Source: Candidatus Omnitrophota bacterium
Lineage (GTDB): Bacteria; Omnitrophota; Gorgyraeia; Pluralincolimonadales; Pluralincolimonadaceae
Direction of reading: 5' to 3'
DNA: 64,000 nucleotides
NCBI GenBank assembly: GCA_003141835.1
Contig: PLNR01000005.1
Coordinates: forward strand, 190,289 to 254,288
Each line of letters starts with the position of its first letter. Position 1 is the stretch's first letter. The position numbers and the translations under genes were made by a program. This document shows, one piece after another, positions 7,674-59,225 of the stretch. The notes under the pieces are model-generated. The model saw only the letters and a list, made by a program, of their open reading frames with translations. It was not told where the DNA came from and did no database searches.

Positions 7674-9564
7674 GGCGTCGTTATTCCGCCTGCTTCCGCT
7701 TAGGCTTTCCCTCTGGATGGCCGGGCGGTTCGGGAGCCTCATATATTATACGATGGGCAGGCGTAAGACCGTCGCTTACGCCGGCCTGCGCGCCGCGTTC
7801 AGGGGCAGGTATACGCCGGCGCAGGCGAACCGCATAATAAAAGAGATATACCAGAACCTCGCGCAGTCTTACATAGAACTCCTGAAATTCCCGCAGTTCG
7901 ACGACGCCTACGTCAAAAAATACATCAAGATAGAAGGCCTCGAGAAGGTAAAGGCTGCGGTGAAAGAGGAAGAGAGGGGAGTCATCTTCCTCACCGCGCA
8001 TTTTGGGAACTGGGAACTGTGCTCATTGACCGGTTCGACTATGGGCTTCAAGATGAACGTGCTGGCGCGTTTCCAAAAACTCAAGAGGCTCAACGGCTAC
8101 CTGAACAAGATGCGCGGCTCGAAGGGCGCCAACGTCATATTCAAGGACGACGCGATCGCCGAGACGATAGACGCGTTGAAGAGACACGAGGCGGTAGGCA
8201 TCCTGTCCGACCAGGACGGCGGCAAGAGGGGCGAGTTCGTTAATTTCCTCGGGCGGCCCGCGTCGACCCCGAAAGGGGTGGCGCATTTTTCATTGAGGAC
8301 GGGCGCGCCGGTATTTCCCGTCGCTATAATCCGCGAAAAAGGCCCTTACCACAGGCTCGTGATAGGCGATGACATATCAGTCATGCCGTCCGGGGATATA
8401 AAGAAGGATATCCATGAGATACTCCAGAGGTTCGCCGATTCCCTTTCGAAATATATCGAGAGATATCCCGGGCAATGGCTATGGCTGCATAAGCGCTGGA
8501 AATCCACCCCCGCCAGATATATCCTCGTATTAAATGACGGCAGGGCCGGACATTTCAAGCAGTCCCGTGCCCTTGCCGGCGCCATTAGGAAAGCGCGCGC
8601 GGAAAGAGGTTTTTCCCAGGAAGACACGGTAATAGGGACGGTCGATGTCAAATTCAAGAACGGCTTCGCGAGGGCGGTCTTCGATATAGGTTCGTTCCTC
8701 GGGTTCGGCATCCACAGCCTGTCATGCTGTTTCCCGAAGGAAGTATACGATAACCTTAGGGCGGCTTACGCGGATTACGTGATATCATGCGGCGCATCGC
8801 TCGCCGGCGTCAACCTCGCTTTTAAGAGAGAGCTCGGCGCAAGGTCGGTGGTCATCATGAAACCGAATATATTCAATATAAAGGATTTTGACCTCGCGGT
8901 CATTCCGGTCCATGACAAAGTGGGAGCGTCAGGTAACGTCGTCTTCACCAAGGGCACTGTGACTGGCCTAGACGAAGATTCCCTCCGCGAATACGGGGAG
9001 AAACTTAAAAAGCGGGTCGCCGTGGACAAGGGCAAAGTCCTCGGAGTGCTGCTGGGCGGAGATTCCAAGTCTTACACATTCGAGAAGGAACTGGCGATAG
9101 AGGTTGTCGACCGGGTCATGGCCGCGGCCGCGGATATCGGCGCCGACGTGCTCATAACGACCTCAAGGAGGACGTCGCACGCGGTCGAGTTCGCGCTGAA
9201 GGAGCGTTACGGTAAGTCCGAGAGGGTTAAACTCCTCCTGGTCGCGAACGAAAATAATTTCGAAGGGGCGGTCGAGGGGATCCTCGCGCTCTCTGACATG
9301 ATCGTCGTCTCGGGAGAGTCGGTCGCGATGGTGACCGAAGCCGTGAGTTCCGGGAAACCCGTATCGGTATTCATGCCGCAAAAGACTAATAAATTTTCGG
9401 GAACGAAACAGGAGGAATCCGTGCGCAACCTGGAAAAGGAAGGGTTGCTCGTGGTTAATGCGGATATTGCTGCTGATATAAGACAGCGCATTAACCACAA
9501 ACAGGCCGATATATTAAGCGGGGACATGAAAGCTATCCGGGCCGGGCTGGAAAAGATACTATGA
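7636..9564 (+). CDS. Bifunctional protein: N-terminal LpxL/HtrB-type lipid A acyltransferase fused to a C-terminal ELM1/DUF1022-like predicted glycosyltransferase-fold domain
   Basis: N-terminal ~300 aa has the LPLAT motif HFGNWEL and the C-terminal YPGQWLWLHKRWK typical of LpxL; the C-terminal ~340 aa begins VLNDGRAGHFKQSRALAGAI, resembling bacterial ELM1-family proteins. Confidence 0.6.
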   Translation: MGDWILYLLVRLEASLFRLLPLRLSLWMAGRFGSLIYYTMGRRKTVAYAGLRAAFRGRYTPAQANRIIKEIYQNLAQSYIELLKFPQFDDAYVKKYIKIEGLEKVKAAVKEEERGVIFLTAHFGNWELCSLTGSTMGFKMNVLARFQKLKRLNGYLNKMRGSKGANVIFKDDAIAETIDALKRHEAVGILSDQDGGKRGEFVNFLGRPASTPKGVAHFSLRTGAPVFPVAIIREKGPYHRLVIGDDISVMPSGDIKKDIHEILQRFADSLSKYIERYPGQWLWLHKRWKSTPARYILVLNDGRAGHFKQSRALAGAIRKARAERGFSQEDTVIGTVDVKFKNGFARAVFDIGSFLGFGIHSLSCCFPKEVYDNLRAAYADYVISCGASLAGVNLAFKRELGARSVVIMKPNIFNIKDFDLAVIPVHDKVGASGNVVFTKGTVTGLDEDSLREYGEKLKKRVAVDKGKVLGVLLGGDSKSYTFEKELAIEVVDRVMAAAADIGADVLITTSRRTSHAVEFALKERYGKSERVKLLLVANENNFEGAVEGILALSDMIVVSGESVAMVTEAVSSGKPVSVFMPQKTNKFSGTKQEESVRNLEKEGLLVVNADIAADIRQRINHKQADILSGDMKAIRAGLEKIL

Positions 9565-11663
9565 AGATAATATATATAATACCAAGGCTTAATCCGGGCG
9601 GCGTGGAGCTGGGTGTGGTCGATTACTCCTCGAGGATGGTAAAACTCGGCCACAATATCGTCGTCATATCCAACGGCGGGGAGTTGCTAAGGCAGCTCGA
9701 GGCCAACGGCATAAAACATTATACCCTCCCGGTCCACAGCAAGAACCCGCTGACCGTCCTCAGCATGATACCGGCGGTCAGGAAAATACTGGTGCAGGAG
9801 AAGGCCGATATCCTGAACGCGGAGAGCAGGGTCCCGGCGATAATAGGTTATTACGCGGCGCGGAGCGCCGGCGTCGTCTTCATCACTACCTGCCACGCAT
9901 ATTATTCGAAGAAGCCATTAAGTTTCAGCAAGGTCATGGGCTGGGGCAAGCTCGTCATCGCTGTAAGCCAGGTGATAGCCAAGCACATGATAGACAATTT
10001 CAACGTCCCGTTCCGCAGGATAAGGCTCGTCTACAGGGGCGTTGATGTCGAGAAATTCAAATACAGGGAGCCGGACGAGTCGGTAAAACATGAATATACG
10101 ATAGGCATAGTAGGCAGGCTGACGCCGATAAAAGGGCATAAATATTTCATACGGGCGGTATCGAAAGCGGTAAAATACGTCCCGCGCATCAAGGCCCTCA
10201 TCGTGGGCGATGCCCCGCCGGAGAAGGAGAAGTACAAACAGGAGCTTGAGAGTCTTGTGAACAGGCTCGGCCTCTCCAGGTATGTAGAATTCCTCGGCGG
10301 CAGGAGCGATATCCCGGACATCCTCGCCAGGCTCGACCTCCTCGTCATGGCGAGCATAGTGCCTGAGGGGTTCGGCAGGGTCGTGGTGGAAGCGTTCGCC
10401 TCCGGCGTGCCGGTAGTTGCGACCGGCGTGGGCGGGGTCATGGAGATAATGAGGGACGGCGAGAACGGGCTTATCGTCCCGCCGGAAGACCCGCAGCCTA
10501 TGGGCGATGCGATCGTGAGGCTGCTGAAGGACCGTAAATTCGCCAGGGAGATCGCGCAGCGCGCCAGGAAAGACGTCGAGGAGAGGTTCAATCTTGACAG
10601 GCTGATAACCGAGACGTTGAGGGTATACGAGGAGGCGCTCGAGGTAAAAAGGATACTTATAATAAAGATAAGCGCCGTCGGCGACTGCGTCCTCGCCACG
10701 CCTTCGATCCGCGCCATCCGCCGTAAATATCCAAAGGCATATATCGCGCTGCTGATAGGCAGGGTAGAGAGCCAGGCGCTTAAGGGATGCCCGTATATCG
10801 ACGAGATGATAATATATGACAGGGAAGGCAGGGATAAGGGATGGCTCAGGTTCTTCGAACTGGCCGCCGAGGTAAGAAGGTACGGCTTCGAGGAAGTGGT
10901 CGACCTCCAGAACAGCTCAAAGAGCCACCTCTTCGCTTTCCTCAGCGCGGCCCCGCACAGGTACGGATACAGGAAAGGGAAATACTGGTTCCTGCTTAAC
11001 AGGACTATAGGGGAAGCCAAAGGGCCGCTCGCGCCGGTAGACCACCAGTTCAGGGTGTTGTCGATGATGGGCATCGAGGACGCGCCGAAGAAACTCGAGC
11101 TCTGGCCTTCGGCCGCGGATATTGAAAATGTAAAAAATATGCTTGATGCGGAGTGGGTGGGCGAGAACCAGACGCTCATAGGGATAAATCCGTCGGCGAG
11201 CCCGCGCTGGGCCACTAAAAAATGGCCCGCCGAGAATTTCGCGAGGCTTTGCGACCTGCTGGGCGAGCGGGAGATCAGGACCGTCCTCATAGGCGGCAGG
11301 TCTGAAGCCGACGCGAAGGCCGCGGCCGATATATTATCGCTCGCGAGGTCGAAGCCCATAAACCTGGCCGGGAGGACGTCGCTCCCCGAACTCGCGGCGC
11401 TCGTGAAAAGGTTCAAGTGCCTCGTTACAAGCGACAGCGCGCCTATGCACATGGCTGCTGCCATGTCTACGCCTTTTGTGGCGCTATTCGGCCCGACCGA
11501 TCCCGACCGCCACCTGCCGCCTTCGGGAAATTGCGCGGTCGTAAAGCGGGAGTTAGGGTGTTCGCCGTGCTATAAACCTGTATGTTCGGATATAAGGTGC
11601 ATGAGGGAGATAACCGTGGAAGACGTGTTGAAAGCGATCGACGGGGTGATGTCGCCGAAATGA
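9561..11663 (+). CDS. Fusion glycosyltransferase: N-terminal GT4 (GT-B, EX7E-type) domain plus C-terminal GT9 ADP-heptose:LPS heptosyltransferase domain
   Basis: N-terminal 360 aa with GT4 features (…SIVPEGFGRVVVEAFASGVPVVATGVGG…); C-terminal ~340 aa begins RILIIKISAVGDCVLATPSIRAI and carries the GT9 C-terminal TSDSAPMHMAAAMSTPFVALFGPTDP motif. Confidence 0.75.
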   Translation: MKIIYIIPRLNPGGVELGVVDYSSRMVKLGHNIVVISNGGELLRQLEANGIKHYTLPVHSKNPLTVLSMIPAVRKILVQEKADILNAESRVPAIIGYYAARSAGVVFITTCHAYYSKKPLSFSKVMGWGKLVIAVSQVIAKHMIDNFNVPFRRIRLVYRGVDVEKFKYREPDESVKHEYTIGIVGRLTPIKGHKYFIRAVSKAVKYVPRIKALIVGDAPPEKEKYKQELESLVNRLGLSRYVEFLGGRSDIPDILARLDLLVMASIVPEGFGRVVVEAFASGVPVVATGVGGVMEIMRDGENGLIVPPEDPQPMGDAIVRLLKDRKFAREIAQRARKDVEERFNLDRLITETLRVYEEALEVKRILIIKISAVGDCVLATPSIRAIRRKYPKAYIALLIGRVESQALKGCPYIDEMIIYDREGRDKGWLRFFELAAEVRRYGFEEVVDLQNSSKSHLFAFLSAAPHRYGYRKGKYWFLLNRTIGEAKGPLAPVDHQFRVLSMMGIEDAPKKLELWPSAADIENVKNMLDAEWVGENQTLIGINPSASPRWATKKWPAENFARLCDLLGEREIRTVLIGGRSEADAKAAADILSLARSKPINLAGRTSLPELAALVKRFKCLVTSDSAPMHMAAAMSTPFVALFGPTDPDRHLPPSGNCAVVKRELGCSPCYKPVCSDIRCMREITVEDVLKAIDGVMSPK

Positions 11664-23262: not shown

Positions 23263-23291
23263 TTGACAAAAAAATTCCACTCACGTATACT
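23263..23291 (+). promoter_or_regulatory. Sigma-70-type promoter with perfect consensus hexamers TTGACA-N17-TATACT upstream of the pilus/T2SS-like operon
   Basis: ttgaca at 23263-23268, 17-nt spacer, tatact at 23286-23291; AAGGAG RBS at 23348-23353 before the ATG at 23359. Confidence 0.6.
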
Positions 23292-23358
23292 ATTTAATTG
23301 GAACGAGTTAGCAATTTAAAAAGTCGTAAAAAAGCAGCCCTTCTTACAAGGAGTGTTG

Positions 23359-25056
23359 ATGCCGAAGGGAGAGAAGAAGTCTCTTGGCGAAGCCCTGGTA
23401 GAACGCGGCCTTGTTACTCCCGAAAAACTCAAGAAGGCGAAGGATGAGGCCGACAGGGCAAAAGAGCCGCTTCGCCGCGTCCTGATAAGGCTGGGCATGG
23501 TCGAAGAGGGTGCGATCATATCCTTTTTCGAGCAGCAGCTCGGCATCCCGCGCATAGATTTTTCGAATTATCTCCTGGATCCCAAAGTCGTCGATATCCT
23601 GCCCGAGAATTTCTGCAGAAAGAACATGATCATCCCGGTATTCAAGATAGGCGGGACGCTGACCATCGCCATGGTGGACCCGCTGGATATCTTTGTCCTC
23701 GACGAGGTCCGCCTTAAGACCAAATGCGAAGTAGAGCCGGTCGTTGTCCATGAGAGGGACCTCATCAGGATCTTCGACCAGTATTACGGCGCGCGGGGCA
23801 CGATGGACGACATCGTAAAATCCCTCGATAAGGATAAATTGCAGATAAAAGAGGGCGCAGAGACCGACATCAAGACGCTGCAGGGGCTCGTCGAGGAAGC
23901 GCCGATAGTAAAGCTCGTCAACCTCCTGATAAGCGAGGCGATAAAGGCAGGGGCCTCGGATATACACATAGAACCCGATGAGCTTTCCCTTGGGACGAGA
24001 TACAGGGTGGACGGCGTCCTCCATGAGGTGACTTCCCCGCCGAAGGACCTCCAGTCGGCGATAATTTCAAGGATAAAGATCCTCTCGGGGATGGATATCG
24101 CGGAGAGGAGGGTGCCCCAGGACGGCAGGTTCCAGCTGAAGATCGAGAATCGCCAGATAGACTGCAGGGTTTCCACCATTCCCACCGTTTACGGCGAAAA
24201 TGTGGTCATAAGGCTCCTCGACCTGAACAGCATACTTTTGGGGCTGAGCGACCTCGGTTTCTCCAGCGAGATGCTTCCGGTATATGAGAAACTTATACGC
24301 AAACCTTACGGCATAATCCTCGTCACCGGCCCGACCGGCTCCGGCAAGACGACCACGCTCTACTCCTCGTTAAGCACCATAAATTCACCGGAAAAGAATA
24401 TCGTGACGATAGAGGACCCGATCGAATACAGGCTGAAGCTCGTCCGGCAGATGCAAATAAATACGAAGGCCGGGCTCACCTTCGCGAACGGCCTGCGTTC
24501 CATCCTGCGGCAGGACCCGGATATCATAATGGTCGGCGAGATCCGCGACCTTGACACCGCCGAGATCGCGATACAGGCGGCGCTCACCGGCCACCTCGTG
24601 TTATCCACGCTGCATACCAATGACGCCCCCGGCGCGATCGCGCGCCTCGTGGATATGGGCGTCGAGCCGTTTTTGGTCAGCTCATCGGTCTCGGCCGTCA
24701 TAGCCCAGAGGCTCGTCCGCGTAATATGCAAGGATTGCAGGGAGAACTACGTCCCCTCCGCGAAATTATCGGAGGAGGTGGGCCTGTCATCATCCAAACA
24801 GGTAAAATTTTACCGCGGCAAAGGCTGCGATAATTGCCTGCACACCGGGTATAAGGGGAGGGTCGGCATATTCGAGTTGATGCTGCCCGACGACGTCATA
24901 AGGACGCTTACCGTCGCAAAATCCTCTTCCACCGAGATACGGAAGGCCGCTATCAAGGCCGGGATGAAGACGATGCAGCAGGACGGCATAGAGAAGGTCA
25001 AGGCCGGGATCACGACCTTGGAGGAAGTCTTGCGGGTCACCCAACAGGAAGAATAA
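23359..25056 (+). CDS. gspE: Type II secretion / type IV pilus assembly ATPase (GspE/PilB family) with N-terminal MshEN-like domain
   Basis: Walker A VTGPTGSGKTTT, Asp box, Walker B and tetracysteine CKDC...CDNC; N-terminal LGEALVERGLVTPEKLKKA...RLGMVEEGAIISF resembles the GspE-N/MshEN domain. Confidence 0.9.
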   Translation: MPKGEKKSLGEALVERGLVTPEKLKKAKDEADRAKEPLRRVLIRLGMVEEGAIISFFEQQLGIPRIDFSNYLLDPKVVDILPENFCRKNMIIPVFKIGGTLTIAMVDPLDIFVLDEVRLKTKCEVEPVVVHERDLIRIFDQYYGARGTMDDIVKSLDKDKLQIKEGAETDIKTLQGLVEEAPIVKLVNLLISEAIKAGASDIHIEPDELSLGTRYRVDGVLHEVTSPPKDLQSAIISRIKILSGMDIAERRVPQDGRFQLKIENRQIDCRVSTIPTVYGENVVIRLLDLNSILLGLSDLGFSSEMLPVYEKLIRKPYGIILVTGPTGSGKTTTLYSSLSTINSPEKNIVTIEDPIEYRLKLVRQMQINTKAGLTFANGLRSILRQDPDIIMVGEIRDLDTAEIAIQAALTGHLVLSTLHTNDAPGAIARLVDMGVEPFLVSSSVSAVIAQRLVRVICKDCRENYVPSAKLSEEVGLSSSKQVKFYRGKGCDNCLHTGYKGRVGIFELMLPDDVIRTLTVAKSSSTEIRKAAIKAGMKTMQQDGIEKVKAGITTLEEVLRVTQQEE

Positions 25057-25058
25057 AT

Positions 25059-26273
25059 ATGCCCCTCTATCGCTATAAGGCAAGAGACGGGATGGGAAAA
25101 CTGGTCGAAGGGGTCATGGAGGCCCCGGCCGAACCCGATCTCGTGGAAAAGCTGCGCAAGATGGGATATGTGATAACCGGGGTTTCGGCCGCCTCCGACA
25201 AGTTCTCTATCGGGGAATTCCTAGGCGGGTTCAGCAGCATAAATCCCGAAGACATGATCTTTTTTAATATACAGTTATCGAATATGCTCGATGCGGGATT
25301 ACCTCTTTTAACCTCGCTGCGCACCATCTCAGCGCAGACGGAGAACAGGACGCTGAAGAAATTACTCGAAGACGTCACGTTAAAAGTCGAGACCGGCTCT
25401 TCCCTGTCCGAGGCGCTTATGGCCCACCCGATGACTTTTTCGAGGCTTACGATAAGCATGGTCAAGGCTGGGGAAGCGAGCGGCAACCTGGGCCTTGTAT
25501 TGAAGAGGCTTGCCGATTTCGGCGAGAGCGAACTGGACCTCAGGCAGAAGGTCAGCGGAGCGTTATTATATCCCGCGGTCCTCTCCGTAGCCGCGACAGC
25601 AGTAATATTATTCATAGTGACGTTCATCATACCGAAGTTCGCGGACATATTCGTCAGGGCCAATATCCCGCTCCCGTTTGTCACGCGTATCCTCTTCGGT
25701 GCGGGGATGACGATAAAGGACTACTGGTACATTTTCGTCCTCGGTGCGACGGCATTATTCCTGGCCGCGCGGATATACGTTAATACCCGCGGCGGGCGTT
25801 TCAGGTTCGATGCCCTTAAACTCGCCATCCCGGTGGTCGGGCCGCTCATCCGCAAAGCGTCCATAGCGAAGTTCGCCCGGATGTTGTCCACCCTTTCGGC
25901 CAGCGGCGTGGATATACTCGAATCGTTGGAGATACTTGAGGTGACTATCGGCAATGAGGTCCTGTCGCGCGTGGTCGTGAAAGTGCGCGACGCGGTGCGC
26001 GGCGGCAGCAAGATATCCGAGACGCTGAGAGTGAGTGCGGAGTTCCCTCCGGATACTGTCCAGATGATCGCGGCAGGCGAGGAGACCGGCAACCTTGACG
26101 TCATGTTGAACAAGGTGGCCGATTTTTATGAGGCGGCCGTCGCTTACAATATAAAAAGGCTCACGTCCCTTCTCGAGCCGGCATTTTTGTTGATAATGGG
26201 TTGTGTCGTGGCCGTCATCATGGCTTCGATATTGGTACCGATGTTCGATCTGGTAAAAGTGTTAAGAAGGTGA
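25059..26273 (+). CDS. gspF: Type II secretion system protein F / PilC inner-membrane platform protein
   Basis: 404 aa, two GspF repeats with three TM segments; directly after the ATPase. Confidence 0.85.
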   Translation: MPLYRYKARDGMGKLVEGVMEAPAEPDLVEKLRKMGYVITGVSAASDKFSIGEFLGGFSSINPEDMIFFNIQLSNMLDAGLPLLTSLRTISAQTENRTLKKLLEDVTLKVETGSSLSEALMAHPMTFSRLTISMVKAGEASGNLGLVLKRLADFGESELDLRQKVSGALLYPAVLSVAATAVILFIVTFIIPKFADIFVRANIPLPFVTRILFGAGMTIKDYWYIFVLGATALFLAARIYVNTRGGRFRFDALKLAIPVVGPLIRKASIAKFARMLSTLSASGVDILESLEILEVTIGNEVLSRVVVKVRDAVRGGSKISETLRVSAEFPPDTVQMIAAGEETGNLDVMLNKVADFYEAAVAYNIKRLTSLLEPAFLLIMGCVVAVIMASILVPMFDLVKVLRR

Positions 26274-26350
26274 TGGTTGATGTATATGCATCAACCAGAA
26301 TAGTAGATGTTAGCCATCTACTATGAGTGGTAGATGTTCACCATCTACCA
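26274..26350. promoter_or_regulatory. Three tandem 9-bp-arm palindromes (half-site T[GA]GT[TA]GATG) in the gspF-pilin spacer
   Basis: tggttgatg-tatatg-catcaacca (26274-26297); tagtagatg-ttagc-catctacta (26301-26323); tggtagatg-ttcac-catctacca (26328-26350); centres ~27 bp apart. Confidence 0.6.
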
Positions 26351-26371
26351 TCAACAAAAGGAGGAAGTAAG

Positions 26372-26830
26372 ATGAGGAAGGGGTTTACGCTTGTAGAACT
26401 TCTTATCGTCATCATGGTCATCGCGATATTGATAGGCATCGCGCTGCCGAGGTTCGGGGGTATGCGCGACGAGGGCAACACGACCAAGGCTGCCGCGGAG
26501 TTGAGGACATTGCAGGCCGCGGTCGAGTCGCGGTATATGCACACCAACCCGCATGCTTACCCGGTAGCCGGTGGTACCTGGGAGACAGCGTTGACGTTGA
26601 CGACGGTCGTGCCGCAGATAATCGGCGCTCCCCTGTATGACCCGTTCGGCGCTAACTCGACGACGCAGTACAGATATGCGCTCAACGGCGCATATTATGT
26701 CATATGGTCTCTCGGGCCCAACAGGACGTCCACGATAACCGGCATCAGCGCCACAGGAACGGTGGCCCCGGCCGCTACAGGCGACGACATATTCGTCTCG
26801 AACGGCACGCCTGGTTCGGGAGGTTTTTGA
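26372..26830 (+). CDS. gspG: Major pseudopilin / type IV pilin (GspG-like), prepilin-type N-terminal cleavage/methylation domain
   Basis: MRKGFTLVELLIVIMVIAILIGIALP class III signal; strong RBS AAAGGAGGAAG upstream. Confidence 0.85.
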   Translation: MRKGFTLVELLIVIMVIAILIGIALPRFGGMRDEGNTTKAAAELRTLQAAVESRYMHTNPHAYPVAGGTWETALTLTTVVPQIIGAPLYDPFGANSTTQYRYALNGAYYVIWSLGPNRTSTITGISATGTVAPAATGDDIFVSNGTPGSGGF

Positions 26831-26833
26831 CCT

Positions 26834-27202
26834 TTGTTCAAAGTCGGCGCGCGCGGTTTTACGCTGATAGAGATCCTGATCGTGATCGCTTTTTTTGCGG
26901 CAGGCGCGGTAGTCCTTTTGCAGATATTCAGCATGGGGCTTTACGGCAGCGTCGATAATGAGAATACCATGATAGCTACCGCGCTTGCGCAGGAGAAGAT
27001 GGAAGAGATGCGCAATGAGCCTTATACCTCGATAGTGCCCGAGGTACGCGCGCAGGTCCCGAATTATACCTCCTTTGACAGGGAGATACTGGTCACCGCG
27101 CCGGTATCTAACCTTAAGCAGGTGACGGTCAATATCTACTGGAACGGGAAGACCGGCGACGTGAAGATATCATTGGTTACGTATGTATCGAATATCATTT
27201 AA
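26834..27202 (+). CDS. Minor pseudopilin (GspI/PilV-like), prepilin-type N-terminus; TTG start
   Basis: GFTLIEILIVIAFFAAGAV N-terminal methylation motif; 122 aa. Confidence 0.65.
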   Translation: MFKVGARGFTLIEILIVIAFFAAGAVVLLQIFSMGLYGSVDNENTMIATALAQEKMEEMRNEPYTSIVPEVRAQVPNYTSFDREILVTAPVSNLKQVTVNIYWNGKTGDVKISLVTYVSNII

Positions 27203-27704
27203 GGGCAGGCCGGGTTTTACCGTAGCGGAGCTTATAATCGCTTCGGCGCTCGTATCGGTCTTGATGGGCGCCATACTGATAACTTTCGTTATCGGGCTGA
27301 AGATATGGGGCTCGGAAATGACGAGGACCGCTTTCATAAAAGATATCTCTTATAGCATGCAGGTCATATCTGAGGACCTGAGGCAAGCGACTTCTTTTGT
27401 CCCGGTCACAAACAGGAACAGGATAGGTTTCCTCGCGGATGTCAACGGGGACGGTTCTCCCGAGACTGTCCGGTATAGCGTCGCCGGCGGAAATCTCCTG
27501 CGCACACAAAACGGCACCGCGACGCCTGTCCTGGCAAGGAACGTGCAGGCCATTACGTTCAGGTATTACAGGCCCGACGATAACATTAACCCGATGGGTG
27601 TTGTGAACCGGGCGCAGATAAGGGTCGTCGAGATAGATCTCGTGCTGACGAACGGGAGCGAGTCCATGCAATTCACTACCAGGGTCAGGCCGAGGGGGAT
27701 ATGA
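27183..27704 (+). CDS. Minor pseudopilin (GspJ/PilW-like), prepilin-type N-terminus
   Basis: GFTVAELIIASALVSVLMGAIL motif; 173 aa. Confidence 0.6.
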   Translation: MYRISFKGRPGFTVAELIIASALVSVLMGAILITFVIGLKIWGSEMTRTAFIKDISYSMQVISEDLRQATSFVPVTNRNRIGFLADVNGDGSPETVRYSVAGGNLLRTQNGTATPVLARNVQAITFRYYRPDDNINPMGVVNRAQIRVVEIDLVLTNGSESMQFTTRVRPRGI

Positions 27705-28117
27705 GCAGACGCGGTTTTGTGTTGATAATGACATTTATATTTATGCTGGCCCTTGCGGCCATAGCAATGGTTACGCTCTCGCTCGTCTCATCCAATACGA
27801 GGTTCACGGGATCCCAGCTTGACGGAACAAAGGCGCTATACCTGGCGCAAGCCGGGATTGAAAGCGTATTAAGGAGCGTCCGCGACGGGCACACGCCGCC
27901 GTCACTGCCTCCGGCCATAACGCTCGGGGACGGGACGGTGGAATACCTGTCGGTAGGCTTTCCCGCTCCGAATACATTAAACATAGACCTGCTGGGCAAG
28001 ATCCCGGTTGATTCCTCATCGGGAAAAGAGATAAAAGCGCACGTAGTCGCAGTTTATTCGGACACAGGCAACGGCAAATTTACTACCTGCGCTTCCTGGA
28101 AAGAGAATTACGAATGA
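27701..28117 (+). CDS. Minor pseudopilin (GspK/PilX-like)
   Basis: RRGFVLIMTFIFMLALAAIAMVTLSLVSS...ALYLAQAGIE, typical of the PilX/GspK N-terminus. Confidence 0.55.
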   Translation: MSRRGFVLIMTFIFMLALAAIAMVTLSLVSSNTRFTGSQLDGTKALYLAQAGIESVLRSVRDGHTPPSLPPAITLGDGTVEYLSVGFPAPNTLNIDLLGKIPVDSSSGKEIKAHVVAVYSDTGNGKFTTCASWKENYE

Positions 28118-29553
28118 TGAACTTTAAGAAAAAAGATACCTATATCGGGGTAGATTTCGGTTTCTCTGCGATAAAGGCCGTCGAGATAGAAGCCGGTCCG
28201 GCCGGAGAACTCATTTTAAAGAGGGCGACCCTCGTCCCGAAAGAAGAAGGGGTAAAGAAGGCCGTTGCCGGAATGCCCGTAAGATCGGCCAGGGTCAATG
28301 TCGTCGCAGATTGCCCGGAAGGCTGCCTGCGCTATTTCACGCTCCCGAAGATGTCGGACCGGGAGATACCCGAGGCGGTTAGGTGGCAGGTGAAAGAGAA
28401 GGCATCCCTTCCGCTTGACGAGCTCCTTATGGATTATAAACTGCAGGATATCGTTGAGGCCGGCGTAAGCAAATACAAAGTAAAACTGGCCGTGATGCCG
28501 GCAAAGTCCGTTGACGGCGTCGTAAGGCTCATGGGCGAGGCGGGCATCAGCCCGGTCGCCCTCTTCCCGCCGCCGCTTGCCATAGAAAAACTTTCGGGCC
28601 GCATGGGCCTGAAACGGGACGAGACCGTTGCGATCGTGGATATCGGGAATGACAGTACCGGGATAAATATCATAAAGGGTAACTCCCTTGTTTTTGCAAG
28701 GAAGGTCAATCCGGGCGGCGCGGCGATCACCAAAGACCTTAACCGCCAGGCGGCGGAACGGCTGGTCCGGGAGATCGAGAGGTCATTCCATTACTATGGT
28801 GACGAATCATCCGGTGACAAGGTCAGGTCGCTCATCCTTACAGGAGGCGGCGCGGCGATCAAAGGGCTGGCCGGGTTTTTACAGGAGAACCTCGGTGTCC
28901 CTGCCTCGGAAGGCGATCCTTTTAAGGGGATCACTTTGGAAAAGGGCGCGCTCGCCGATCCGGCATGGCCGGCCGGAGCCTTCGCCAATGCCATAGGCGC
29001 TGCTTTAAGCGAAGGACGGGGGATCAATCTCCTGCCTCCGGAATTGAAACAAAAGACTATACGAATGTTCGAGAAGGCCGCAGTCGAGTCGGTAATAGCG
29101 GCGGTGGCCGTTTCCCTGGTCCTCTCTTTTATCGGCATCAGGATGCAACTCTCCAACTATGATAAGAAGATAGCTTACGCGACGGGAGAACTGACCGCCA
29201 TGAAGCCGCAATTGGAGATAGCTGCCCATTACGAGCGCATGGCCAGGGAGCTCTCCGAAAGGAATGCGTTCGTCTATTCGGTCTCCTCAGGTATCCCGCC
29301 GTGGAAAGAGGTGCTGAAGGAGCTTAGTAACAGGCTCCCGAAATACGCGGTCCTCTCGGGCCTGAAGGCGGACGCGGGTAGTTTAGAGATAAACGGCCAG
29401 GTCACAGGTGACGTAAAGGACCGCGAAAAAGCCCTATCCGGCATCATAAAGTCGCTTGAGGGAGGCATGTTCAAGAACGTGACGCTCGTGAACGCCAAGA
29501 TGGGCGAGGGCACGAATTCAAATACGGAGTTCGATATAAAATGCTCGTTCTGA
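28114..29553 (+). CDS. pilM: PilM-PilN fusion (actin-like ATPase-fold assembly protein fused to a bitopic PilN-like segment)
   Basis: N-terminal ~330 aa PilM/GspL-like (IGVDFGFSAIKAVEIE...), then a TM (VIAAVAVSLVLSFIGI) and a coiled-coil PilN-like C-terminus. Confidence 0.7.
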   Translation: MMNFKKKDTYIGVDFGFSAIKAVEIEAGPAGELILKRATLVPKEEGVKKAVAGMPVRSARVNVVADCPEGCLRYFTLPKMSDREIPEAVRWQVKEKASLPLDELLMDYKLQDIVEAGVSKYKVKLAVMPAKSVDGVVRLMGEAGISPVALFPPPLAIEKLSGRMGLKRDETVAIVDIGNDSTGINIIKGNSLVFARKVNPGGAAITKDLNRQAAERLVREIERSFHYYGDESSGDKVRSLILTGGGAAIKGLAGFLQENLGVPASEGDPFKGITLEKGALADPAWPAGAFANAIGAALSEGRGINLLPPELKQKTIRMFEKAAVESVIAAVAVSLVLSFIGIRMQLSNYDKKIAYATGELTAMKPQLEIAAHYERMARELSERNAFVYSVSSGIPPWKEVLKELSNRLPKYAVLSGLKADAGSLEINGQVTGDVKDREKALSGIIKSLEGGMFKNVTLVNAKMGEGTNSNTEFDIKCSF

Positions 29554-30125
29554 AAAAAATGGGATCTTTTAAGGAGAACAAGGCGGCGATCGTCGTCATC
29601 TCGGGGATCGTCGTATTCATTGTCCTGTTCGCGGTGATCTTCGCCCCGGCGAGGAAGGACCTGGCCGGGAAGAAGGAGATGTACCGGGAACTGGAAGTCC
29701 AGCTTACCGACGGCCGGAATAAACTTTCCGCGGCCAAATCGGACAAGGCCGGTGTCGAGGCGAAAGTCGGGGAGCTGCGCAGGCGGCTTCCTCCGAAGAG
29801 CCCGACGGCGGCGATACTGGAGGAGTTGTCGAAGAAAGGGAAGGGGCTCAATATAGATTTCATTTCGATATCGCCCCAGCCTGCCGAACCGCTCCCGGAC
29901 GTCTCCGCAGCATTCAACTGCAAGGCGCTGCCCATAACCATAAAAATGAAGGCGGCCTATAAGAGCCTCGGGGATTATCTCGGGTCGCTGGATAACCTCG
30001 AGAGCAGTTTTGTGACCGTCCCGGAATTACAGGTCGCAAAAGACGAAAGGACATTCCCGAAACTGACGGTAGATATGAAGGTTTACACGTATATCCTGGA
30101 AGAGGCCGAAAGTGGACAAGAATAA
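29541..30125 (+). CDS. pilO: PilO/GspM-like inner-membrane pilus assembly protein
   Basis: N-terminal TM plus coiled coil plus C-terminal PilO-like domain; position after pilMN. Confidence 0.6.
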   Translation: MLVLKKMGSFKENKAAIVVISGIVVFIVLFAVIFAPARKDLAGKKEMYRELEVQLTDGRNKLSAAKSDKAGVEAKVGELRRRLPPKSPTAAILEELSKKGKGLNIDFISISPQPAEPLPDVSAAFNCKALPITIKMKAAYKSLGDYLGSLDNLESSFVTVPELQVAKDERTFPKLTVDMKVYTYILEEAESGQE

Positions 30126-30525
30126 ACAGCAATTAGCCGTTCTTGGAGTAGTCATCGCGATATTTATTGTCGTCACCGCGATTGCCGTCCTGAAGCCGCG
30201 CGCCAAAATACCGGAACAGGCAAAAGCCGTTCCTGCGGCCGCAGCCCCGGTCCAAAAGCCCGCCCCCCAGAGAGAGCGGATGGTAAGCTCATTCAACTCC
30301 TGGGGCAGGGACCCGTTCGCGACCGGCGGCGGGTCTGCGGAACAGGGCGGACCGGCGTCGCTCAGCGGGATCTTCTGCGACTCCAAGAAAAGCTACTGTA
30401 TAATAGACGGCAAGGTGGCGAAGGTGGGCGACGAGGTCTCGGGATACAAGATATTGGAGATAACGAAGGATACCGTTACCGTCAAGGCCGGTGATGAGAT
30501 AAGGACGCTCAGAATAGGCCATTAA
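30112..30525 (+). CDS. pilP: PilP-like small membrane-anchored protein (Ala/Pro-rich linker plus C-terminal beta domain)
   Basis: TM, AAAAPVQKPAPQ linker, C-terminal IIDGKVAKVGDEVSGYKILEITKDTVTVK pattern resembling the PilP beta-sandwich. Confidence 0.45.
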   Translation: MDKNKQQLAVLGVVIAIFIVVTAIAVLKPRAKIPEQAKAVPAAAAPVQKPAPQRERMVSSFNSWGRDPFATGGGSAEQGGPASLSGIFCDSKKSYCIIDGKVAKVGDEVSGYKILEITKDTVTVKAGDEIRTLRIGH

Positions 30526-30528
30526 AAC

Positions 30529-30557
30529 TTGACTGGGGGCCTATCTTCTGCTATCAT
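30529..30557 (+). promoter_or_regulatory. Candidate promoter TTGACT-N17-TATCAT upstream of lpxL
   Basis: Hexamers at 30529-30534 and 30552-30557; only ~8 nt before the GTG at 30566, so possibly leaderless or the true start lies downstream. Confidence 0.3.
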
Positions 30558-30565
30558 AACGCGTT

Positions 30566-31462
30566 GTGAAGCACAGAATCAGGAGAAGGTATCTTTACTA
30601 CCTTCTTAGGACAGCCAGTTTTATCTCGCTTCTCTTCCCGATAAAAATTAACAAATTTTTAGGCAGGCGGATGGGGGAGTGCGCCTTTTTTTTGGTGCCC
30701 GCCCACAGGAAGAGCGCGATAGAGAACCTAAAGGTAGCGTTCAAAGGAGAGAAGACCGAAGCCGAGATAAGGGCCATCGCCAAGGGGATCTTCCGCAATT
30801 TAGGCGAGAACCTTTTTGAGATATTAAGCGCTTCTAAACTGACCCCTCGGAACATAGACAGGCACGTCAGGATAAGAGGCCTCGATATAGTAGACAAAGC
30901 TCTTTCACAGAAGAGGGGTTTTATCGTCCTTTCGGCGCATTTCGGCAATTGGGAGCTCCTTGCCGGATGGTTCGGCCTCAAGAAATATCCGGTGAATGTC
31001 CTCGCCCGGAGGCTGCGTTACGAAAAATTCGATGATTGGATAAACAGCCTGCGCCGGAAGATGGGCGTCAACGTCGTGATGAGGGACGAGTCGCCCAGGA
31101 CGATCCTTAAGCTGCTGAAGGACGGGCAGTCGATAGCTATCCTTGCCGACCAGGACATCTCCTCCGTCGAGGGGGTTTTTGTGGATTTCTTCGGGCATCC
31201 GGCTTATACGCCGACAGCTCCGGTCATCCTAGCCCTCGCCACGGCCGTGCCGATAATACCGATGTTCATCGTGCGCGAAGGCAACAGCCACACCATATAC
31301 GTCGAGGAGCCGCTCGAGCTCGAGATAACCGGCAACAAAGAGAACGACATAAAAGTAAATACGGAAAAATGGTCTAAGGTCGTCGAATCGTATATACGGA
31401 AGTACCCGTCGCAATGGGTCTGGGTCCATAACAGGTGGAAGACGAAAAATGAAGATAACTAG
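30566..31462 (+). CDS. lpxL: Lipid A biosynthesis (Kdo)2-lipid IVA acyltransferase, LpxL/LpxM family
   Basis: HFGNWELLAGW...LADQD...YPSQWVWVHNRWK LPLAT/LpxL motifs. Confidence 0.8.
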   Translation: MKHRIRRRYLYYLLRTASFISLLFPIKINKFLGRRMGECAFFLVPAHRKSAIENLKVAFKGEKTEAEIRAIAKGIFRNLGENLFEILSASKLTPRNIDRHVRIRGLDIVDKALSQKRGFIVLSAHFGNWELLAGWFGLKKYPVNVLARRLRYEKFDDWINSLRRKMGVNVVMRDESPRTILKLLKDGQSIAILADQDISSVEGVFVDFFGHPAYTPTAPVILALATAVPIIPMFIVREGNSHTIYVEEPLELEITGNKENDIKVNTEKWSKVVESYIRKYPSQWVWVHNRWKTKNEDN

Positions 31463-32243
31463 AAGCGGGTTGGCCGTCGCGTTGTTAACTGCGTTCCTGT
31501 TCACAGGATGTGAGAGCAAACAGGCGAAGGCGCCGGCCCCGTCCCAGGCCGACCTGGAGGCGAACCTCTCCGGCGACCAGAAGATGATGGCCTTCTCGCT
31601 CTCCGGTTTCGAGAAGACAGGCAAGAAGAAGTGGGAGGTCCAGGGCAAATCTGCGGATATCGTCTCCGAGGTGGTCAACCTCACCGATGTAGTCGCGAAA
31701 GCCTACGGCGACCAGACCGACATGACGCTTACGGCCGACAAGGGCTCATTCAACAGGGCGACCAACGACGCGCATTTCGAGTCGAACGTAGTAGTCAGCG
31801 GCACGAACGGCACGGAGATGAAGACGGACGCCCTGGATTGGAAGAACACCGACCAGAAGGTCACCACCGATAAGCCGGTCGTGATGAAATCCGACGCGAA
31901 GGGCAAGGGAAGCGCCGAGCTTGCGACCAAGACGCCCACGACGATAACCTGCGACGGGCCGATGGAGATAGATTACGGCAAGAGCTATGCCGTCTTTAAC
32001 AAGAACGTCAAGGTCGACGATGACCGCGGGCAGCTGTTTTGCGACATGGCAACCGCTTATTACGATACCAAGACGAAGCAGGTCTCAAGGATAGTAGCTA
32101 AGGGCAACGTGAAGATAATGCGGGAAGGCAGCTGGACGTACAGCGACGAGGCGACATACCTCGCGCCTGAGCAGAAGGTCATCCTCACGGGTTCTCCGAA
32201 AGTGATGATCTATCCCGATCAGAAGAAGGCCGCGCAAAAATAA
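31449..32243 (+). CDS. LptC/LptA-family (OstA-like) periplasmic LPS-transport lipoprotein
   Basis: Lipobox LFTGC, beta-jellyroll-like repeats (...GNVKIMREG...LTGSPKV), located immediately upstream of lptB. Confidence 0.6.
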   Translation: MKITRSGLAVALLTAFLFTGCESKQAKAPAPSQADLEANLSGDQKMMAFSLSGFEKTGKKKWEVQGKSADIVSEVVNLTDVVAKAYGDQTDMTLTADKGSFNRATNDAHFESNVVVSGTNGTEMKTDALDWKNTDQKVTTDKPVVMKSDAKGKGSAELATKTPTTITCDGPMEIDYGKSYAVFNKNVKVDDDRGQLFCDMATAYYDTKTKQVSRIVAKGNVKIMREGSWTYSDEATYLAPEQKVILTGSPKVMIYPDQKKAAQK

Positions 32244-46785: not shown

Positions 46786-47499
46786 GTGCGGAGGCCTTTC
46801 TATACAGCGGTTTTAGCCCTCATTTTGATTTCGTTCTTCAATTCGGCAAATCCGGAAGAGAAGGCCATAGAGGCTGCGCCCTCGCCCGTAACATCGTCGA
46901 CGGCGGCAGCCGTTGAAGTTCCGGCACCGCCGGCGTTGCCGGCGGCAACACCGGCGATACCCGAAGAAGAATCGGTGAAGGTCCTTATCGATGATTTCCT
47001 TCCCGACGGGGCCGTGGCACAGGGTACATGGGATTGGGATAGTGCGTTAAAATACCGCGGCGAAAAGTCCCACACGCAGCCGGCGGCGAAAGGTTTGACA
47101 GAGCATTCTTACAGGGCCGCTCCGGTAGACGTACCGGAGGGCTGTTTATTGGAACAATATGTATACCTTGATCCCAAGGATACCCCGACCGGGATAATGC
47201 TGACGTTCAAGTTCGAGGCCGAGGACAGGGAAGGCGAGATCGGCGTCTATCGCGAGGGCGAGGAAGAGGTATTCGTCTTCAATGAAGACGAGCCGGTGAT
47301 ATACGATGGTACGTTACCGGAATCCGGCAAATGGGAAAAATGGACTATCGATCCCGATGACCTCGACCTTAAGGGCGCCAAGATAACAGGTATCTCATTC
47401 GCGGTCTACGGCGGAAAGGCGAACTGGGACCTTACGCGTTTCGTTCCGTCGAAAAAAATAAAACAAAATTCGGAACCCTGGAAGGGTCCTAATAACTAA
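46786..47499 (+). CDS. Hypothetical secreted protein (signal peptide, Ala/Pro-rich linker, acidic beta-rich domain)
   Basis: N-terminal hydrophobic signal, no recognisable catalytic motifs. Confidence 0.5.
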   Translation: MRRPFYTAVLALILISFFNSANPEEKAIEAAPSPVTSSTAAAVEVPAPPALPAATPAIPEEESVKVLIDDFLPDGAVAQGTWDWDSALKYRGEKSHTQPAAKGLTEHSYRAAPVDVPEGCLLEQYVYLDPKDTPTGIMLTFKFEAEDREGEIGVYREGEEEVFVFNEDEPVIYDGTLPESGKWEKWTIDPDDLDLKGAKITGISFAVYGGKANWDLTRFVPSKKIKQNSEPWKGPNN

Positions 47500-47510
47500 A
47501 GGAGAGGGGC

Positions 47511-57774: not shown

Positions 57775-57805
57775 AAAATAATATTAACTATCAAAGGAGA
57801 ACAAT

Positions 57806-58612: not shown

Positions 58613-58628
58613 GGGACGTGTCAAAAAG
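58605..58628 (+). repeat. Island repeat B1 (ataaataggggacgtgtcaaaaag), overlapping the TPR gene stop
   Basis: 22/24 identical to B2 at 59226-59249; the 11-mer ataggggacgt also occurs at 39113-39123. Confidence 0.6.
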
Positions 58629-58663
58629 GCAAGGTACCCGTTAGGGTAGACAGGTCGCAGAGC

Positions 58664-59219: not shown

Positions 59220-59225
59220 CAGAAG

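What the first reader, a model, noticed from the sequence alone, without database searches (positions are those of the whole stretch)
23263..30525. Secretin-less T2SS/T4P hybrid operon inserted inside the conserved kdsD-kdsC / lptC-lptA-lptB-(rpoN)-hpf locus
In many Proteobacteria kdsD-kdsC is followed directly by lptC-lptA-lptB-rpoN-hpf. Here a 7.3 kb pilus-type operon plus an lpxL gene sits between kdsC and the lptC/A-like gene, rpoN is absent, and hpf follows lptB directly. The operon encodes gspE/pilB, gspF, a GspG-like major pseudopilin, three minor pseudopilins, fused pilM-pilN, pilO and a pilP-like gene. The window contains no secretin (GspD/PilQ) and no prepilin peptidase. It is driven by a textbook TTGACA-17-TATACT promoter. 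Co-location with LPS export genes hints at a cell-envelope function coupled to outer-membrane biogenesis, or at an inner-membrane-only pseudopilus. An unusual machine composition is a possibility.
Basis: partly seen in the sequence, partly recalled or inferred. Interest (0 to 1): 0.6.

Follow-up and report, generated by a model that had tools for sequence, protein, structure and literature searches.

The report
Accessory pilus operon lacking its secretin
This is a real, conserved nine-gene pilus/secretion-type operon of an uncultured Omnitrophota bacterium that has no outer-membrane pore gene of its own but keeps the adaptor that normally docks to one, so it most likely uses a pore encoded elsewhere, and its place next to LPS genes looks like local gene order rather than a functional link.

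Summary
Window 23263-30525 carries a sigma-70-type promoter and nine co-directional genes:
- a PilB/GspE ATPase and a PilC/GspF platform;
- a GspG-like major pseudopilin and three minor pilins;
- a natural PilM-PilN fusion, PilO, and a 137-aa PilP/GspC-HR-like protein.

No secretin, prepilin peptidase, PilT or rpoN lies in the window.

- The organism is Candidatus Omnitrophota, so the proteobacterial kdsC-lptC-rpoN expectation does not apply.
- The same arrangement recurs in genus- to family-level relatives. In a more distant relative the operon sits elsewhere.
- The operon and lpxL each have their own promoter-like site.
- A prepilin peptidase gene lies 0.6-1.4 kb outside the window, on the same contig.
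- The last gene is homologous to the PilP proteins that sit next to PilQ in other Omnitrophota clusters (hhalign 98%). Its model matches secretin-docking domains, so a secretin encoded elsewhere is the likeliest partner. I could not find that secretin.

New here: gspF through the last gene form a hypervariable cassette. Against a relative about 88% identical in nucleotides, synonymous divergence is 2-3 times the flanks and all dN/dS values are below 0.31. That points to allele exchange.

Verdict: a functional accessory type IV filament system, a new variant of a known kind, of moderate interest.

The parts
23263..23291 (+). Sigma-70-type promoter TTGACA-17 nt-TATACT
   Evidence: Read directly. 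It scores 11/12 and is the best match in 18-36 kb. It is conserved in L001 and L083 and nearly so in L084 (TACACT).
23292..23358 (+). Conserved leader of about 65 nt ending in the AAGGAG ribosome-binding site
   Evidence: Near-identical in L001, L083 and L084, although PilMN there is only 47-60% identical. No Rfam family matches. A regulatory role is inferred only.
23359..25056 (+). Assembly ATPase, PilB/GspE type with an MshEN N-terminal domain (the ORF also opens at GTG 23353)
   Evidence: Pfam T2SSE 476 bits and MshEN 82 bits. NCBIfam PilB 663 bits (cutoff 675.65) and GspE 643 bits (cutoff 630.25). Best PDB matches are PilB 554 bits and PilF 523 bits, ahead of GspE 454 bits.
25059..26273 (+). 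Inner-membrane platform protein PilC/GspF
   Evidence: Pfam T2SSF 202 bits with two repeats. NCBIfam GspF 362 bits and Thermus-type PilC 350 bits, both below their equivalog cutoffs.
26372..26830 (+). Major pseudopilin, GspG-like, 152 aa, leader MRKG|FTLVELL, no cysteine
   Evidence: N_methyl 31 bits. It aligns over its full length with the L085 orthologue, which carries Pfam T2SSG. The N-terminal helix matches Geobacter and Thermus pilins and GspG.
26834..27202 (+). Minor pilin, GspI/PilV-like, 122 aa
   Evidence: Weak NCBIfam hits to PilV (25.6 bits) and GspI (25 bits), plus the prepilin motif. Leader G|FTLIE.
27183..27704 (+). Minor pilin, GspJ-like by position, 173 aa
   Evidence: The prepilin cleavage/methylation domain TIGR02532 scores 17.7 bits, above its 16.3 cutoff. 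Leader G|FTVAE. The GspJ assignment rests on position in the operon only.
27701..28117 (+). Minor pilin without Glu5, GspK/PilX-like, shortened to 138 aa
   Evidence: PilX_N 20.7 bits, below cutoff. Leader G|FVLIM. Orthologues are 270-504 aa; the L083 one carries PF12836 HHH_3 and a faint T2SSK hit, the L090 one faint hits to both.
28114..29553 (+). Natural PilM-PilN fusion: cytoplasmic actin-like domain, INLLP motif, TM helix, periplasmic domain
   Evidence: Pfam PilM_2 83 bits and PilN 22 bits. AF2 model pLDDT 85.7. Foldseek matches PilM at E 1e-21 to 1e-17 and GspL at 1e-8. More than 40 full-length homologues exist.
29541..30125 (+). PilO (counterpart of GspM)
   Evidence: Pfam PilO 45.5 bits. 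PDB PilO 2rjz at E 1.2e-4. The L085 orthologue also has a weak T2SSM hit.
30112..30525 (+). PilP/GspC-HR/GspB-like protein: N-terminal TM helix, Pro/Ala linker, RDPF motif, C-terminal beta domain
   Evidence: hhalign against PilP of canonical Omnitrophota T4aP clusters: 98.0% probability, E 1.7e-13. The C-terminal domain of the AF2 model has pLDDT 86-89. The top four Foldseek PDB hits are PilP, GspC-HR in complex with GspD, PilP and GspB. Family profile against PDB: GspC 2lnv at E 0.07.
30529..30557 (+). Context: a separate promoter-like site (TTGACT-17-TATCAT, with TG) ahead of lpxL (30671-31462)
   Evidence: The lpxL start follows the gene call in L081.

Best explanation
This is an accessory type IV filament machine of a Candidatus Omnitrophota bacterium. 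It is transcribed as its own unit from a conserved sigma-70 promoter.

Proposed mechanism
1. Four prepilins (one GspG-like major and three I/J/K-like minor) are cleaved by the prepilin peptidase encoded about 25 kb upstream. The peptidase gene is shown; its use by this system is inferred.
2. The PilB-type ATPase and the PilC/GspF platform polymerise the prepilins at the inner membrane.
3. A PilM-PilN fusion and PilO form the alignment subcomplex.
4. The membrane-anchored PilP/GspC-HR-like last protein connects that subcomplex to a secretin encoded elsewhere. The likeliest candidate is the PilQ of the canonical T4aP cluster that is near-universal in the phylum. This step is inferred.

The filament or its tip is probably exposed at the cell surface and involved in contact with host, prey, surfaces or phage. 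The reason is that the cassette from gspF to the last gene behaves as an exchangeable, fast-diverging allele set under purifying selection. Its position beside the kds and lpt genes is lineage-specific synteny, not a functional coupling.
For: Parts and their types
- Gene content and family assignments.
- The PilN INLLP motif is kept at the fusion joint.

Functional and conserved
- The ORFs are intact in the window, L001, L083, L084, L090 and L085.
- The promoter and leader are conserved.
- dN/dS is 0.11-0.31 for every cassette gene.

Peptidase
- A24_N_bact plus Peptidase_A24, 259 aa, lies between aroE and aroC at about window -1397 to -618 on the same 443-kb contig.
- Canonical T4aP clusters of the phylum also lack a peptidase within 10 kb.

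Secretin docking
- The last gene is homologous to the PilP proteins that lie directly upstream of PilQ. It folds like PilP, GspC-HR and GspB.
- In L022 and L086 the homologous or T2SSB-like gene immediately precedes a secretin.
- Canonical PilQ clusters occur in many Omnitrophota. L173 is compositionally close to the window, with tetranucleotide r 0.915.
- T4aP is reported in nearly all Omnitrophota (PMC10066038).

Exchangeable cassette
- Nucleotide identity to L001 drops from about 0.88 to 0.46-0.75 between about 25000 and 30300, then returns to 0.93.
- dS is 0.76-1.59 in the cassette against 0.37-0.85 (mostly 0.37-0.71) in the flanks.
- The two pilins compared (pilinA, pilinB) are closer to the more distant genome L083 (79% and 77%) than to L001 (65% and 47%).

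No coupling to LPS export
- Promoters are separate.
- L090 has a different upstream flank.
- In L085 the operon lies among GGDEF and response-regulator genes.
Against: - No secretin was found for this organism.
  - None lies in the 82.7 kb of the source contig that I could read (and the window).
  - None of the 120 listed secretin homologues sits on a 443,359-bp contig. That search is word-limited and lists only part of the hits.
- The operon type has lacked a cis secretin even at 31% PilMN identity. A machine that works without one cannot be excluded.
- The structural matches of the small PilP-like domain have weak E-values (0.03-0.1), although probabilities are 0.97-1.0.
- Surface exposure is inferred from the evolutionary pattern only. 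IM components (PilMN, PilO) diverge as well, which fits whole-cassette exchange but not exposure in itself.
- No substrate, adhesin or PilT was identified, so pilus versus secretion pseudopilus is undecided.
Confidence: 0.6

Rival explanations
1. The machine is truly secretin-independent. It builds a periplasmic pseudopilus that never crosses the outer membrane through a secretin. It might act as a Com-like DNA-uptake or piston device, or use a non-secretin outer-membrane conduit.
For: - No cis secretin in six loci of this operon type spanning 31-100% PilMN identity. Other Omnitrophota clusters end with a secretin.
- None in 82.7 kb of the contig.
- No PilT.
- The pseudopilins are T2SS- or Com-like and cysteine-free.
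- dprA lies in the window.
Against: - The operon keeps a conserved PilP/GspC-HR-type module. Every structurally characterised relative of that module docks to a secretin N0 domain.
- dprA is widespread and lies 22 kb away.
- The cell has LPS and Lpt genes, so any secreted product or exposed filament needs an outer-membrane exit.
- Absence of a gene from an operon is not absence from the genome. The peptidase turned out to be in trans.
Confidence: 0.2
2. The operon is functionally coupled to LPS synthesis or export, or to outer-membrane biogenesis.
For: The operon sits directly upstream of lpxL, lptC/A and lptB in five loci: window, L001, L083, L084 and L090. It lies inside a large LPS-core gene block.
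Against: - Those five genomes are close relatives (housekeeping identity 67-99%). They conserve the whole neighbourhood, including tig-clpP-lon, so the linkage carries little information.
- The operon has its own promoter and leader, and lpxL has its own promoter-like site.
- The upstream flank differs in L090.
- At 31% PilMN identity the operon lies among signalling genes with no LPS genes within 10 kb.
- No component resembles an Lpt or Bam part.
Confidence: 0.07
3. The operon is a decaying remnant of a T4P/T2SS cluster that lost its secretin and no longer functions.
For: - The secretin is missing.
- The GspK-like pilin is shortened to 138 aa, against 270-504 aa in relatives.
- The PilM part is about 47 aa shorter than in most homologues.
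- The cassette is strongly diverged.
Against: - All nine ORFs are intact here and in five other loci.
- dN/dS is 0.11-0.31, which indicates purifying selection.
- The elevated dS indicates imported alleles, not relaxed constraint.
- The promoter, ribosome-binding site and leader are conserved.
- The PilMN AF2 model is confident, with pLDDT 85.7.
Confidence: 0.03

Closest known systems
Type IVa pilus machine (PilB, PilC, PilM, PilN, PilO, PilP, PilQ; Myxococcus, Pseudomonas, Thermus)
   Same: - The ATPase is PilB-like with an MshEN N-domain. Its best PDB hits are PilB and PilF.
- The PilM fold matches at E 1e-21.
- The PilN INLLP motif, PilO and a PilP-like fold are all present.
- The peptidase is encoded in trans.
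   Different: - PilM and PilN are fused into one polypeptide.
- The PilP-like protein is anchored by a TM helix, not as a lipoprotein.
- The major subunit has no cysteines or D-region and is GspG-like.
- No PilQ and no PilT lie in 82.7 kb.
- All genes sit in one gsp-ordered operon.
Type II secretion system (GspC-O)
   Same: - Gene order E-F-G-(H)-I-J-K-L-M.
- A GspG-like major pseudopilin. The L085 orthologue hits Pfam T2SSG.
- An I/J/K-like minor set, with the last lacking Glu5.
- An L-like fusion architecture.
- An HR-domain protein with a TM anchor, like GspC or GspB.
- No retraction ATPase.
- The ATPase passes the NCBIfam GspE cutoff.
   Different: - No GspD, GspH or GspN.
- The L-like protein is PilM-type, not GspL-type.
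- The ATPase N-terminus is MshEN, not the GspE N1 domain.
- GspF and GspG score below their equivalog cutoffs.
- The HR protein lacks a PDZ or coiled-coil domain and sits at the 3' end of the operon.
Canonical Omnitrophota T4aP cluster (small MshEN protein, two PilB, PilC, two pilins, PilM, PilN, PilO, PilP, PilQ); reported as near-universal in the phylum in PMC10066038
   Same: Same phylum and same component families. Its PilP is homologous to the window's last gene.
   Different: - The canonical cluster has separate PilM and PilN and a cis PilQ secretin.
- The window ATPase is only about 47% identical to its PilB.
- The window operon is a separate paralogous system.
Thermus thermophilus pili and DNA translocator (one PilQ serving more than one filament; pilins resembling T2SS pseudopilins; PMC5745081 and PMC5131608, seen)
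   Same: It is a precedent for T2SS-like pilins assembled by a PilB-type, MshEN-bearing ATPase, with the secretin encoded at another locus and shared. The window pilin's N-terminus matches the Thermus PilA5 chain 8qqj (E 4.8e-6) and the unnamed chain 6xxe (E 2.9e-7).
   Different: No evidence here for DNA uptake. The phylum differs, and sharing of a secretin is untested.
Amuc_1101-family PilM-like proteins and 'Verru_Chthon cassette' pilin-like proteins of Verrucomicrobia (NCBIfam)
   Same: - PilMN hits NF045709 at 77 bits.
- The pilins give weak hits to TIGR02596, TIGR02599 and TIGR02600.
- This suggests a PVC-group flavour of such clusters.
   Different: All scores are far below the family cutoffs (650 for NF045709), so the window proteins are not members.

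Membership tests
Type II secretion system (Gsp) | Outer-membrane secretin GspD belonging to the system | tested here: not met
   No Secretin or Secretin_N Pfam hit in any of the 59 window ORFs scanned (four ORFs not scanned) or in the 10-kb extensions on either side. None in cis in five related loci. The rest of the genome is not testable.
Type II secretion system (Gsp) | GspE-type ATPase | tested here: inconclusive
   TIGR02533 GspE scores 642.8 bits, above its 630.25 cutoff. PilB TIGR02538 scores higher at 663, just under its 675.65 cutoff. The N-terminus is MshEN, and PDB favours PilB.
Type II secretion system (Gsp) | GspG major pseudopilin and GspH-K minor pseudopilins | tested here: inconclusive
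   TIGR01710 GspG scores 39 bits (cutoff 88.85), on the N-terminal helix only. The L085 orthologue carries PF08334 T2SSG and aligns over its full length. The L083 and L090 orthologues of the fourth pilin show faint T2SSK hits. There is no GspH.
Type II secretion system (Gsp) | GspL and GspM assembly-platform proteins | tested here: not met
   TIGR01709 GspL scores 18 bits (cutoff 65). By fold the protein is PilM (E 1e-21), with GspL only at 1e-8. The fused architecture resembles GspL but is not a family member.
Type II secretion system (Gsp) | GspC-type HR domain linking the IM platform to the secretin | tested here: met
   Foldseek hits to 3oss_C (GspC-GspD complex, probability 1.0, TMt 0.69), 6hcg_e (PulC HR) and 4wfw (GspB). 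Profile against 2lnv at E 0.07. There is no PDZ domain.
Type IVa pilus | PilM, PilN (INLLP motif), PilO alignment subcomplex | tested here: met
   Pfam PilM_2, PilN and PilO. Foldseek PilM. INLLP at residues 304-308, with L306, L307 and P308 nearly invariant. PilO 2rjz. PilM and PilN are fused.
Type IVa pilus | PilP | tested here: met
   hhalign 98.0%, E 1.7e-13 against PilP of canonical Omnitrophota clusters. Foldseek PilP 3jc8_P and 2lc4. It is TM-anchored rather than a lipoprotein.
Type IVa pilus | PilQ secretin | tested here: not met
   Absent from 82.7 kb of the contig (window). Genome-wide presence is not testable with these tools.
Type IVa pilus | PilT/PilU retraction ATPase | tested here: not met
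   Only one T2SSE-family protein in the window and the extensions. The rest of the genome was not seen.
Type IVa pilus | Prepilin peptidase PilD | tested here: met
   PF06750 plus PF01478, 259 aa, at L180 7521-8300. It is on the same contig, about 24.7 kb upstream of gspE and outside the window.
Type IVa pilus | T4a major pilin with a disulfide-bonded C-terminal D-region | tested here: not met
   The mature major subunit has no cysteine.
MSH-type / c-di-GMP-gated MshE ATPase | MshEN c-di-GMP-binding motif | tested here: inconclusive
   NF053729 scores 37.8 bits against a cutoff of 38. By eye, both 24-residue motifs deviate at the key Arg/Gly/Gln positions (the consensus is from my own knowledge).
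Com pseudopilus (ComG) | ComGA, ComGB and ComGC equivalogs | tested here: not met
   ComGA 270 bits (cutoff 300), ComGB 145 (cutoff 240) and ComGC 30 (cutoff 75).

The most novel reading that the evidence does not exclude
A clade of Omnitrophota maintains a type IV filament machine that has operated without any dedicated secretin for a long time. Either it has none at all, with the PilP-like module repurposed to another envelope partner, or it time-shares the T4aP PilQ. Its gspF-to-pilP cassette is swapped between lineages as a host- or prey-recognition or phage-evasion module in these putatively parasitic nanobacteria.
Probability: 0.15. Interest if true: 0.65.

Novelty: new variant of a known kind. 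Interest (0 to 1): 0.35.

Why it matters
Omnitrophota are uncultured, ultra-small and probably host-dependent bacteria. Their pili are proposed attachment or predation tools (PMC10066038).

This locus defines a second, paralogous filament system with an unusual build: a natural PilM-PilN fusion, T2SS-like pseudopilins, and no cis secretin. It also shows a clear signature of allele exchange.

If the filament is surface-exposed, the cassette is a candidate host-range determinant. If it shares PilQ with the T4aP, it would be a natural example of two filament systems using one secretin.

It does not open a link between pilus machines and LPS export.

Tried and rejected
1. Locating a secretin in this organism.
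- I searched 5.8 billion proteins with an Omnitrophota secretin. No listed hit lies on a 443,359-bp contig.
- Accession lookups gave no accession for the window protein.
- Contexts of three candidate secretins (P0162, P0089, P0094) came from other assemblies.
- A JGI metagenome scan with a secretin profile, followed by tetranucleotide matching, gave a best r of 0.915. Same-genus loci give at least 0.966, so none is the same genome.

2. Walking the contig. Only 10 kb on each side was possible. That found the peptidase upstream and nothing relevant downstream. The aroK lookup failed because the start codon did not match the gene call.

3. Riboswitch or known RNA in the leader or the window: none.

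5. GspL identity of the fusion: rejected in favour of PilM.

6. Pseudogene or decay: rejected.

7. LPS coupling: rejected as the main reading.

8. A full reference phylogeny of the ATPase and the pilin was not built, because reference sequences could not be imported. Classification rests on NCBIfam and PDB score ranking.

Full report
**Observation**

The region 23263-30525 is as described. A TTGACA-17-TATACT promoter (23263-23291) is the best sigma-70-like site in 18-36 kb. Nine co-directional, tightly packed genes follow. Pfam and NCBIfam identify them as follows:
- a T2SSE ATPase with an MshEN N-domain;
- a T2SSF platform protein;
- four proteins with class-III (prepilin) leaders, namely G|FTLVE, G|FTLIE, G|FTVAE and G|FVLIM, the last lacking Glu5;
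- a 479-aa PilM_2 plus PilN fusion;
- PilO;
- a 137-aa protein with no family hit.

Upstream lie kdsB-pyrG-kdsA-kdsD-kdsC. Downstream lie lpxL, a fused LptC/LptA-like gene, lptB, long-form hpf, tig, clpP and lon. I scanned 59 of the 63 called ORFs of the window against Pfam. None is a secretin, an A24 peptidase, a sigma-54 or a second T2SSE ATPase. The cut aroC fragment 12-440 and three small ORFs of 72-95 aa at 58678-59775 were not scanned; precomputed Pfam gives DUF2007 for 59545-59775.

**Organism and context**

The closest genome hit is a Candidatus Omnitrophica MAG (L001, ATPase 93% identical). The next-best ATPase relatives, at 50-57% identity, include several other Omnitrophota MAGs together with MAGs labelled as other groups. 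The exact PilMN protein lies on a 443-kb ENA contig. The proteobacterial kdsD-kdsC-lptC-lptA-lptB-rpoN-hpf arrangement (established knowledge for E. coli and relatives) is therefore not the right null model.

The order kdsC-[operon]-lpxL-lptCA-lptB-hpf-tig-clpP-lon recurs in L001, L083 and L084. L090 shares the downstream side only. Housekeeping proteins of these genomes are 67-99% identical to the window's. The arrangement is thus ancestral at about genus to family depth, which is also why the linkage says little about function.

In L085 (PilMN 31% identical) the same operon type lies between response-regulator/GGDEF genes and unrelated transport genes. The promoter and a leader of about 65 nt are conserved directly upstream of the ATPase. 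This holds even in L084, where another gene separates kdsC from the operon. lpxL has its own promoter-like site. No Rfam family matches the leader. I therefore reject functional coupling with LPS export as the main reading.

**What kind of machine**

T4aP-type features:
- The ATPase scores 663 bits on PilB (cutoff 675.65) and 643 bits on GspE (cutoff 630.25).
- Its best solved relatives are PilB (554 bits) and PilF, ahead of GspE (454 bits).
- The fusion protein was modelled with an alignment of 34 sequences (pLDDT 85.7). The model shows an actin-like domain, a long helix and a C-terminal alpha/beta domain.
- Foldseek puts PilM first (E 1e-21 to 1e-17, TMt up to 0.75) and GspL far behind (1e-8).
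- The PilN N-terminal INLLP motif is present at the joint and nearly invariant. The INLLP consensus is from my own knowledge.

T2SS-like features:
- The major subunit has no cysteine.
- It aligns end to end with the L085 orthologue, which carries Pfam T2SSG.
- The L083 orthologue of the fourth pilin carries PF12836 HHH_3 with a faint T2SSK hit, and the L090 one has faint hits to both.
- The gene order E-F-G-I-J-K-L-M is that of gsp operons (own knowledge).

The 'hybrid' label is fair. The system has a T4aP-type motor and alignment complex with T2SS-like pseudopilins and operon layout.

**The last gene and the secretin question**

- A profile of the 137-aa family hits the GspC HR domain first in PDB (2lnv, E 0.07) and also PilP.
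- An AF2 model from 39 sequences gives a TM helix, a disordered linker and a six-stranded C-terminal domain with pLDDT 86-89.
- The top four Foldseek PDB hits are Myxococcus PilP, GspC-HR in the GspC-GspD complex, Pseudomonas PilP and Dickeya GspB. PulC-HR also appears. E-values are weak because the domain is small.
- hhalign against the PilP proteins that precede PilQ in canonical Omnitrophota T4aP clusters gives 98.0% probability and E 1.7e-13. The shared RDPF motif is included in the alignment.
- In other Omnitrophota clusters the homologous or T2SSB-like gene is immediately followed by a secretin: L022, L086, L088, L092 and L173/L176/L164.

The window operon thus looks like such a cluster without its terminal secretin gene, yet with the docking module kept under purifying selection (dN/dS 0.20-0.27). 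The simplest inference is a secretin partner encoded elsewhere.

I could not verify this.
- No secretin lies in 82.7 kb of the contig (window).
- Indirect searches found none assignable to this genome.
- T4aP clusters are reported in nearly all Omnitrophota (PMC10066038).

**Peptidase**

Reading 10 kb upstream of the window revealed a 259-aa A24_N_bact plus Peptidase_A24 gene between aroE and aroC. It lies about 0.6-1.4 kb before window position 1, on the same strand. 'No prepilin peptidase' is true of the window but not of the genome. Canonical T4aP clusters of the phylum also lack a cis peptidase.

**Hypervariable cassette (new)**

- Against L001 the background nucleotide identity is about 0.88. 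It falls to 0.70-0.77 from the gspE/gspF junction (about 25000) and to 0.46-0.60 over the pilins. It stays at 0.67-0.75 through pilMN-pilO and returns to 0.93 at lpxL.
- Synonymous divergence is 0.76-1.59 in the cassette against 0.37-0.85 (mostly 0.37-0.71) in the flanks. dN/dS is 0.11-0.31.
- The window's first two pilins are closer to those of the more distant genome L083 (79% and 77%) than to those of L001 (65% and 47%).

This pattern indicates exchange of divergent functional alleles, not decay. It fits a structure exposed to hosts, prey or phage, but that last step is an inference.

**Verdict**

This is a functional accessory type IV filament system of Omnitrophota and a new variant of a known kind. 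The insertion and LPS-coupling ideas are not supported. The 'secretin-less machine' idea is possible but less likely than a trans-encoded secretin. Confidence in the main model is 0.6, and interest is 0.35.

Noticed in passing
L180 7521-8300 (about window -1397 to -618; contig k141_397642 158719-159498): A prepilin peptidase gene (A24_N_bact plus Peptidase_A24) is embedded in aromatic amino-acid genes, in the order aroE-pilD-aroC-aroK-dprA-topA, just outside the window.
   Followed up: partly
window ~25000-30300 vs L001 11700-17800: There is a divergence trough from gspF to the last operon gene. Nucleotide identity is 0.46-0.75 against about 0.88 in the flanks. dS is 2-3 times higher and dN/dS is below 0.31. 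The pilin alleles are discordant with genome relatedness, which suggests cassette exchange.
   Followed up: yes
window 23292-23358; L001, L083, L084 equivalents: The leader of about 65 nt between the promoter and the ATPase start is almost invariant across relatives whose pilus proteins are only 47-60% identical. No Rfam match. It may be a regulator-binding or translational-control element.
   Followed up: partly
window 27701-28117 and 28114-29553: The GspK/PilX-like minor pilin is only 138 aa here, against 270-504 aa in relatives. The PilM part of the fusion lacks about 47 residues present in most homologues, which are 526-530 aa.
   Followed up: no
window 26372-26830 (C-terminus): The major pseudopilin and its genus/family orthologues end in a conserved tail, SNG-PG(S/T)GGF, of unknown meaning. 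The tail is absent from the distant L085 orthologue.
   Followed up: no
window 2186-4435: Topoisomerase I carries an N-terminal ThiS-family (ubiquitin-like) domain at residues 9-67 (Pfam 42.7 bits). The same is seen in the precomputed annotation of the contig.
   Followed up: no
window 7636-9564, 9561-11663, 31449-32243: Three gene fusions occur in the LPS block: LpxL-type acyltransferase fused to an ELM1-like domain; GT4 fused to a GT9 heptosyltransferase; and LptC fused to an LptA/OstA-like domain in one 264-aa protein with an N-terminal hydrophobic stretch ending ...LFTGC.
   Followed up: no
window 57800-59900: A low-GC stretch (0.41-0.43 against about 0.55) lies between proS and rimP. It holds a TPR protein and small ORFs without family hits, plus DUF2007.
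   Followed up: no
window 46786-48682: A trio of envelope genes lies 16 kb from the operon: an unknown 237-aa protein, a PG_binding_1 protein and an OmpA-family protein. There is no evidence of a link to the operon.
   Followed up: no
L084 5191-6327: In one relative an AAA_14/DUF4143 ATPase gene is inserted between kdsC and the operon promoter. In the same locus the minor pilins have moved to after the PilP-like gene.
   Followed up: no
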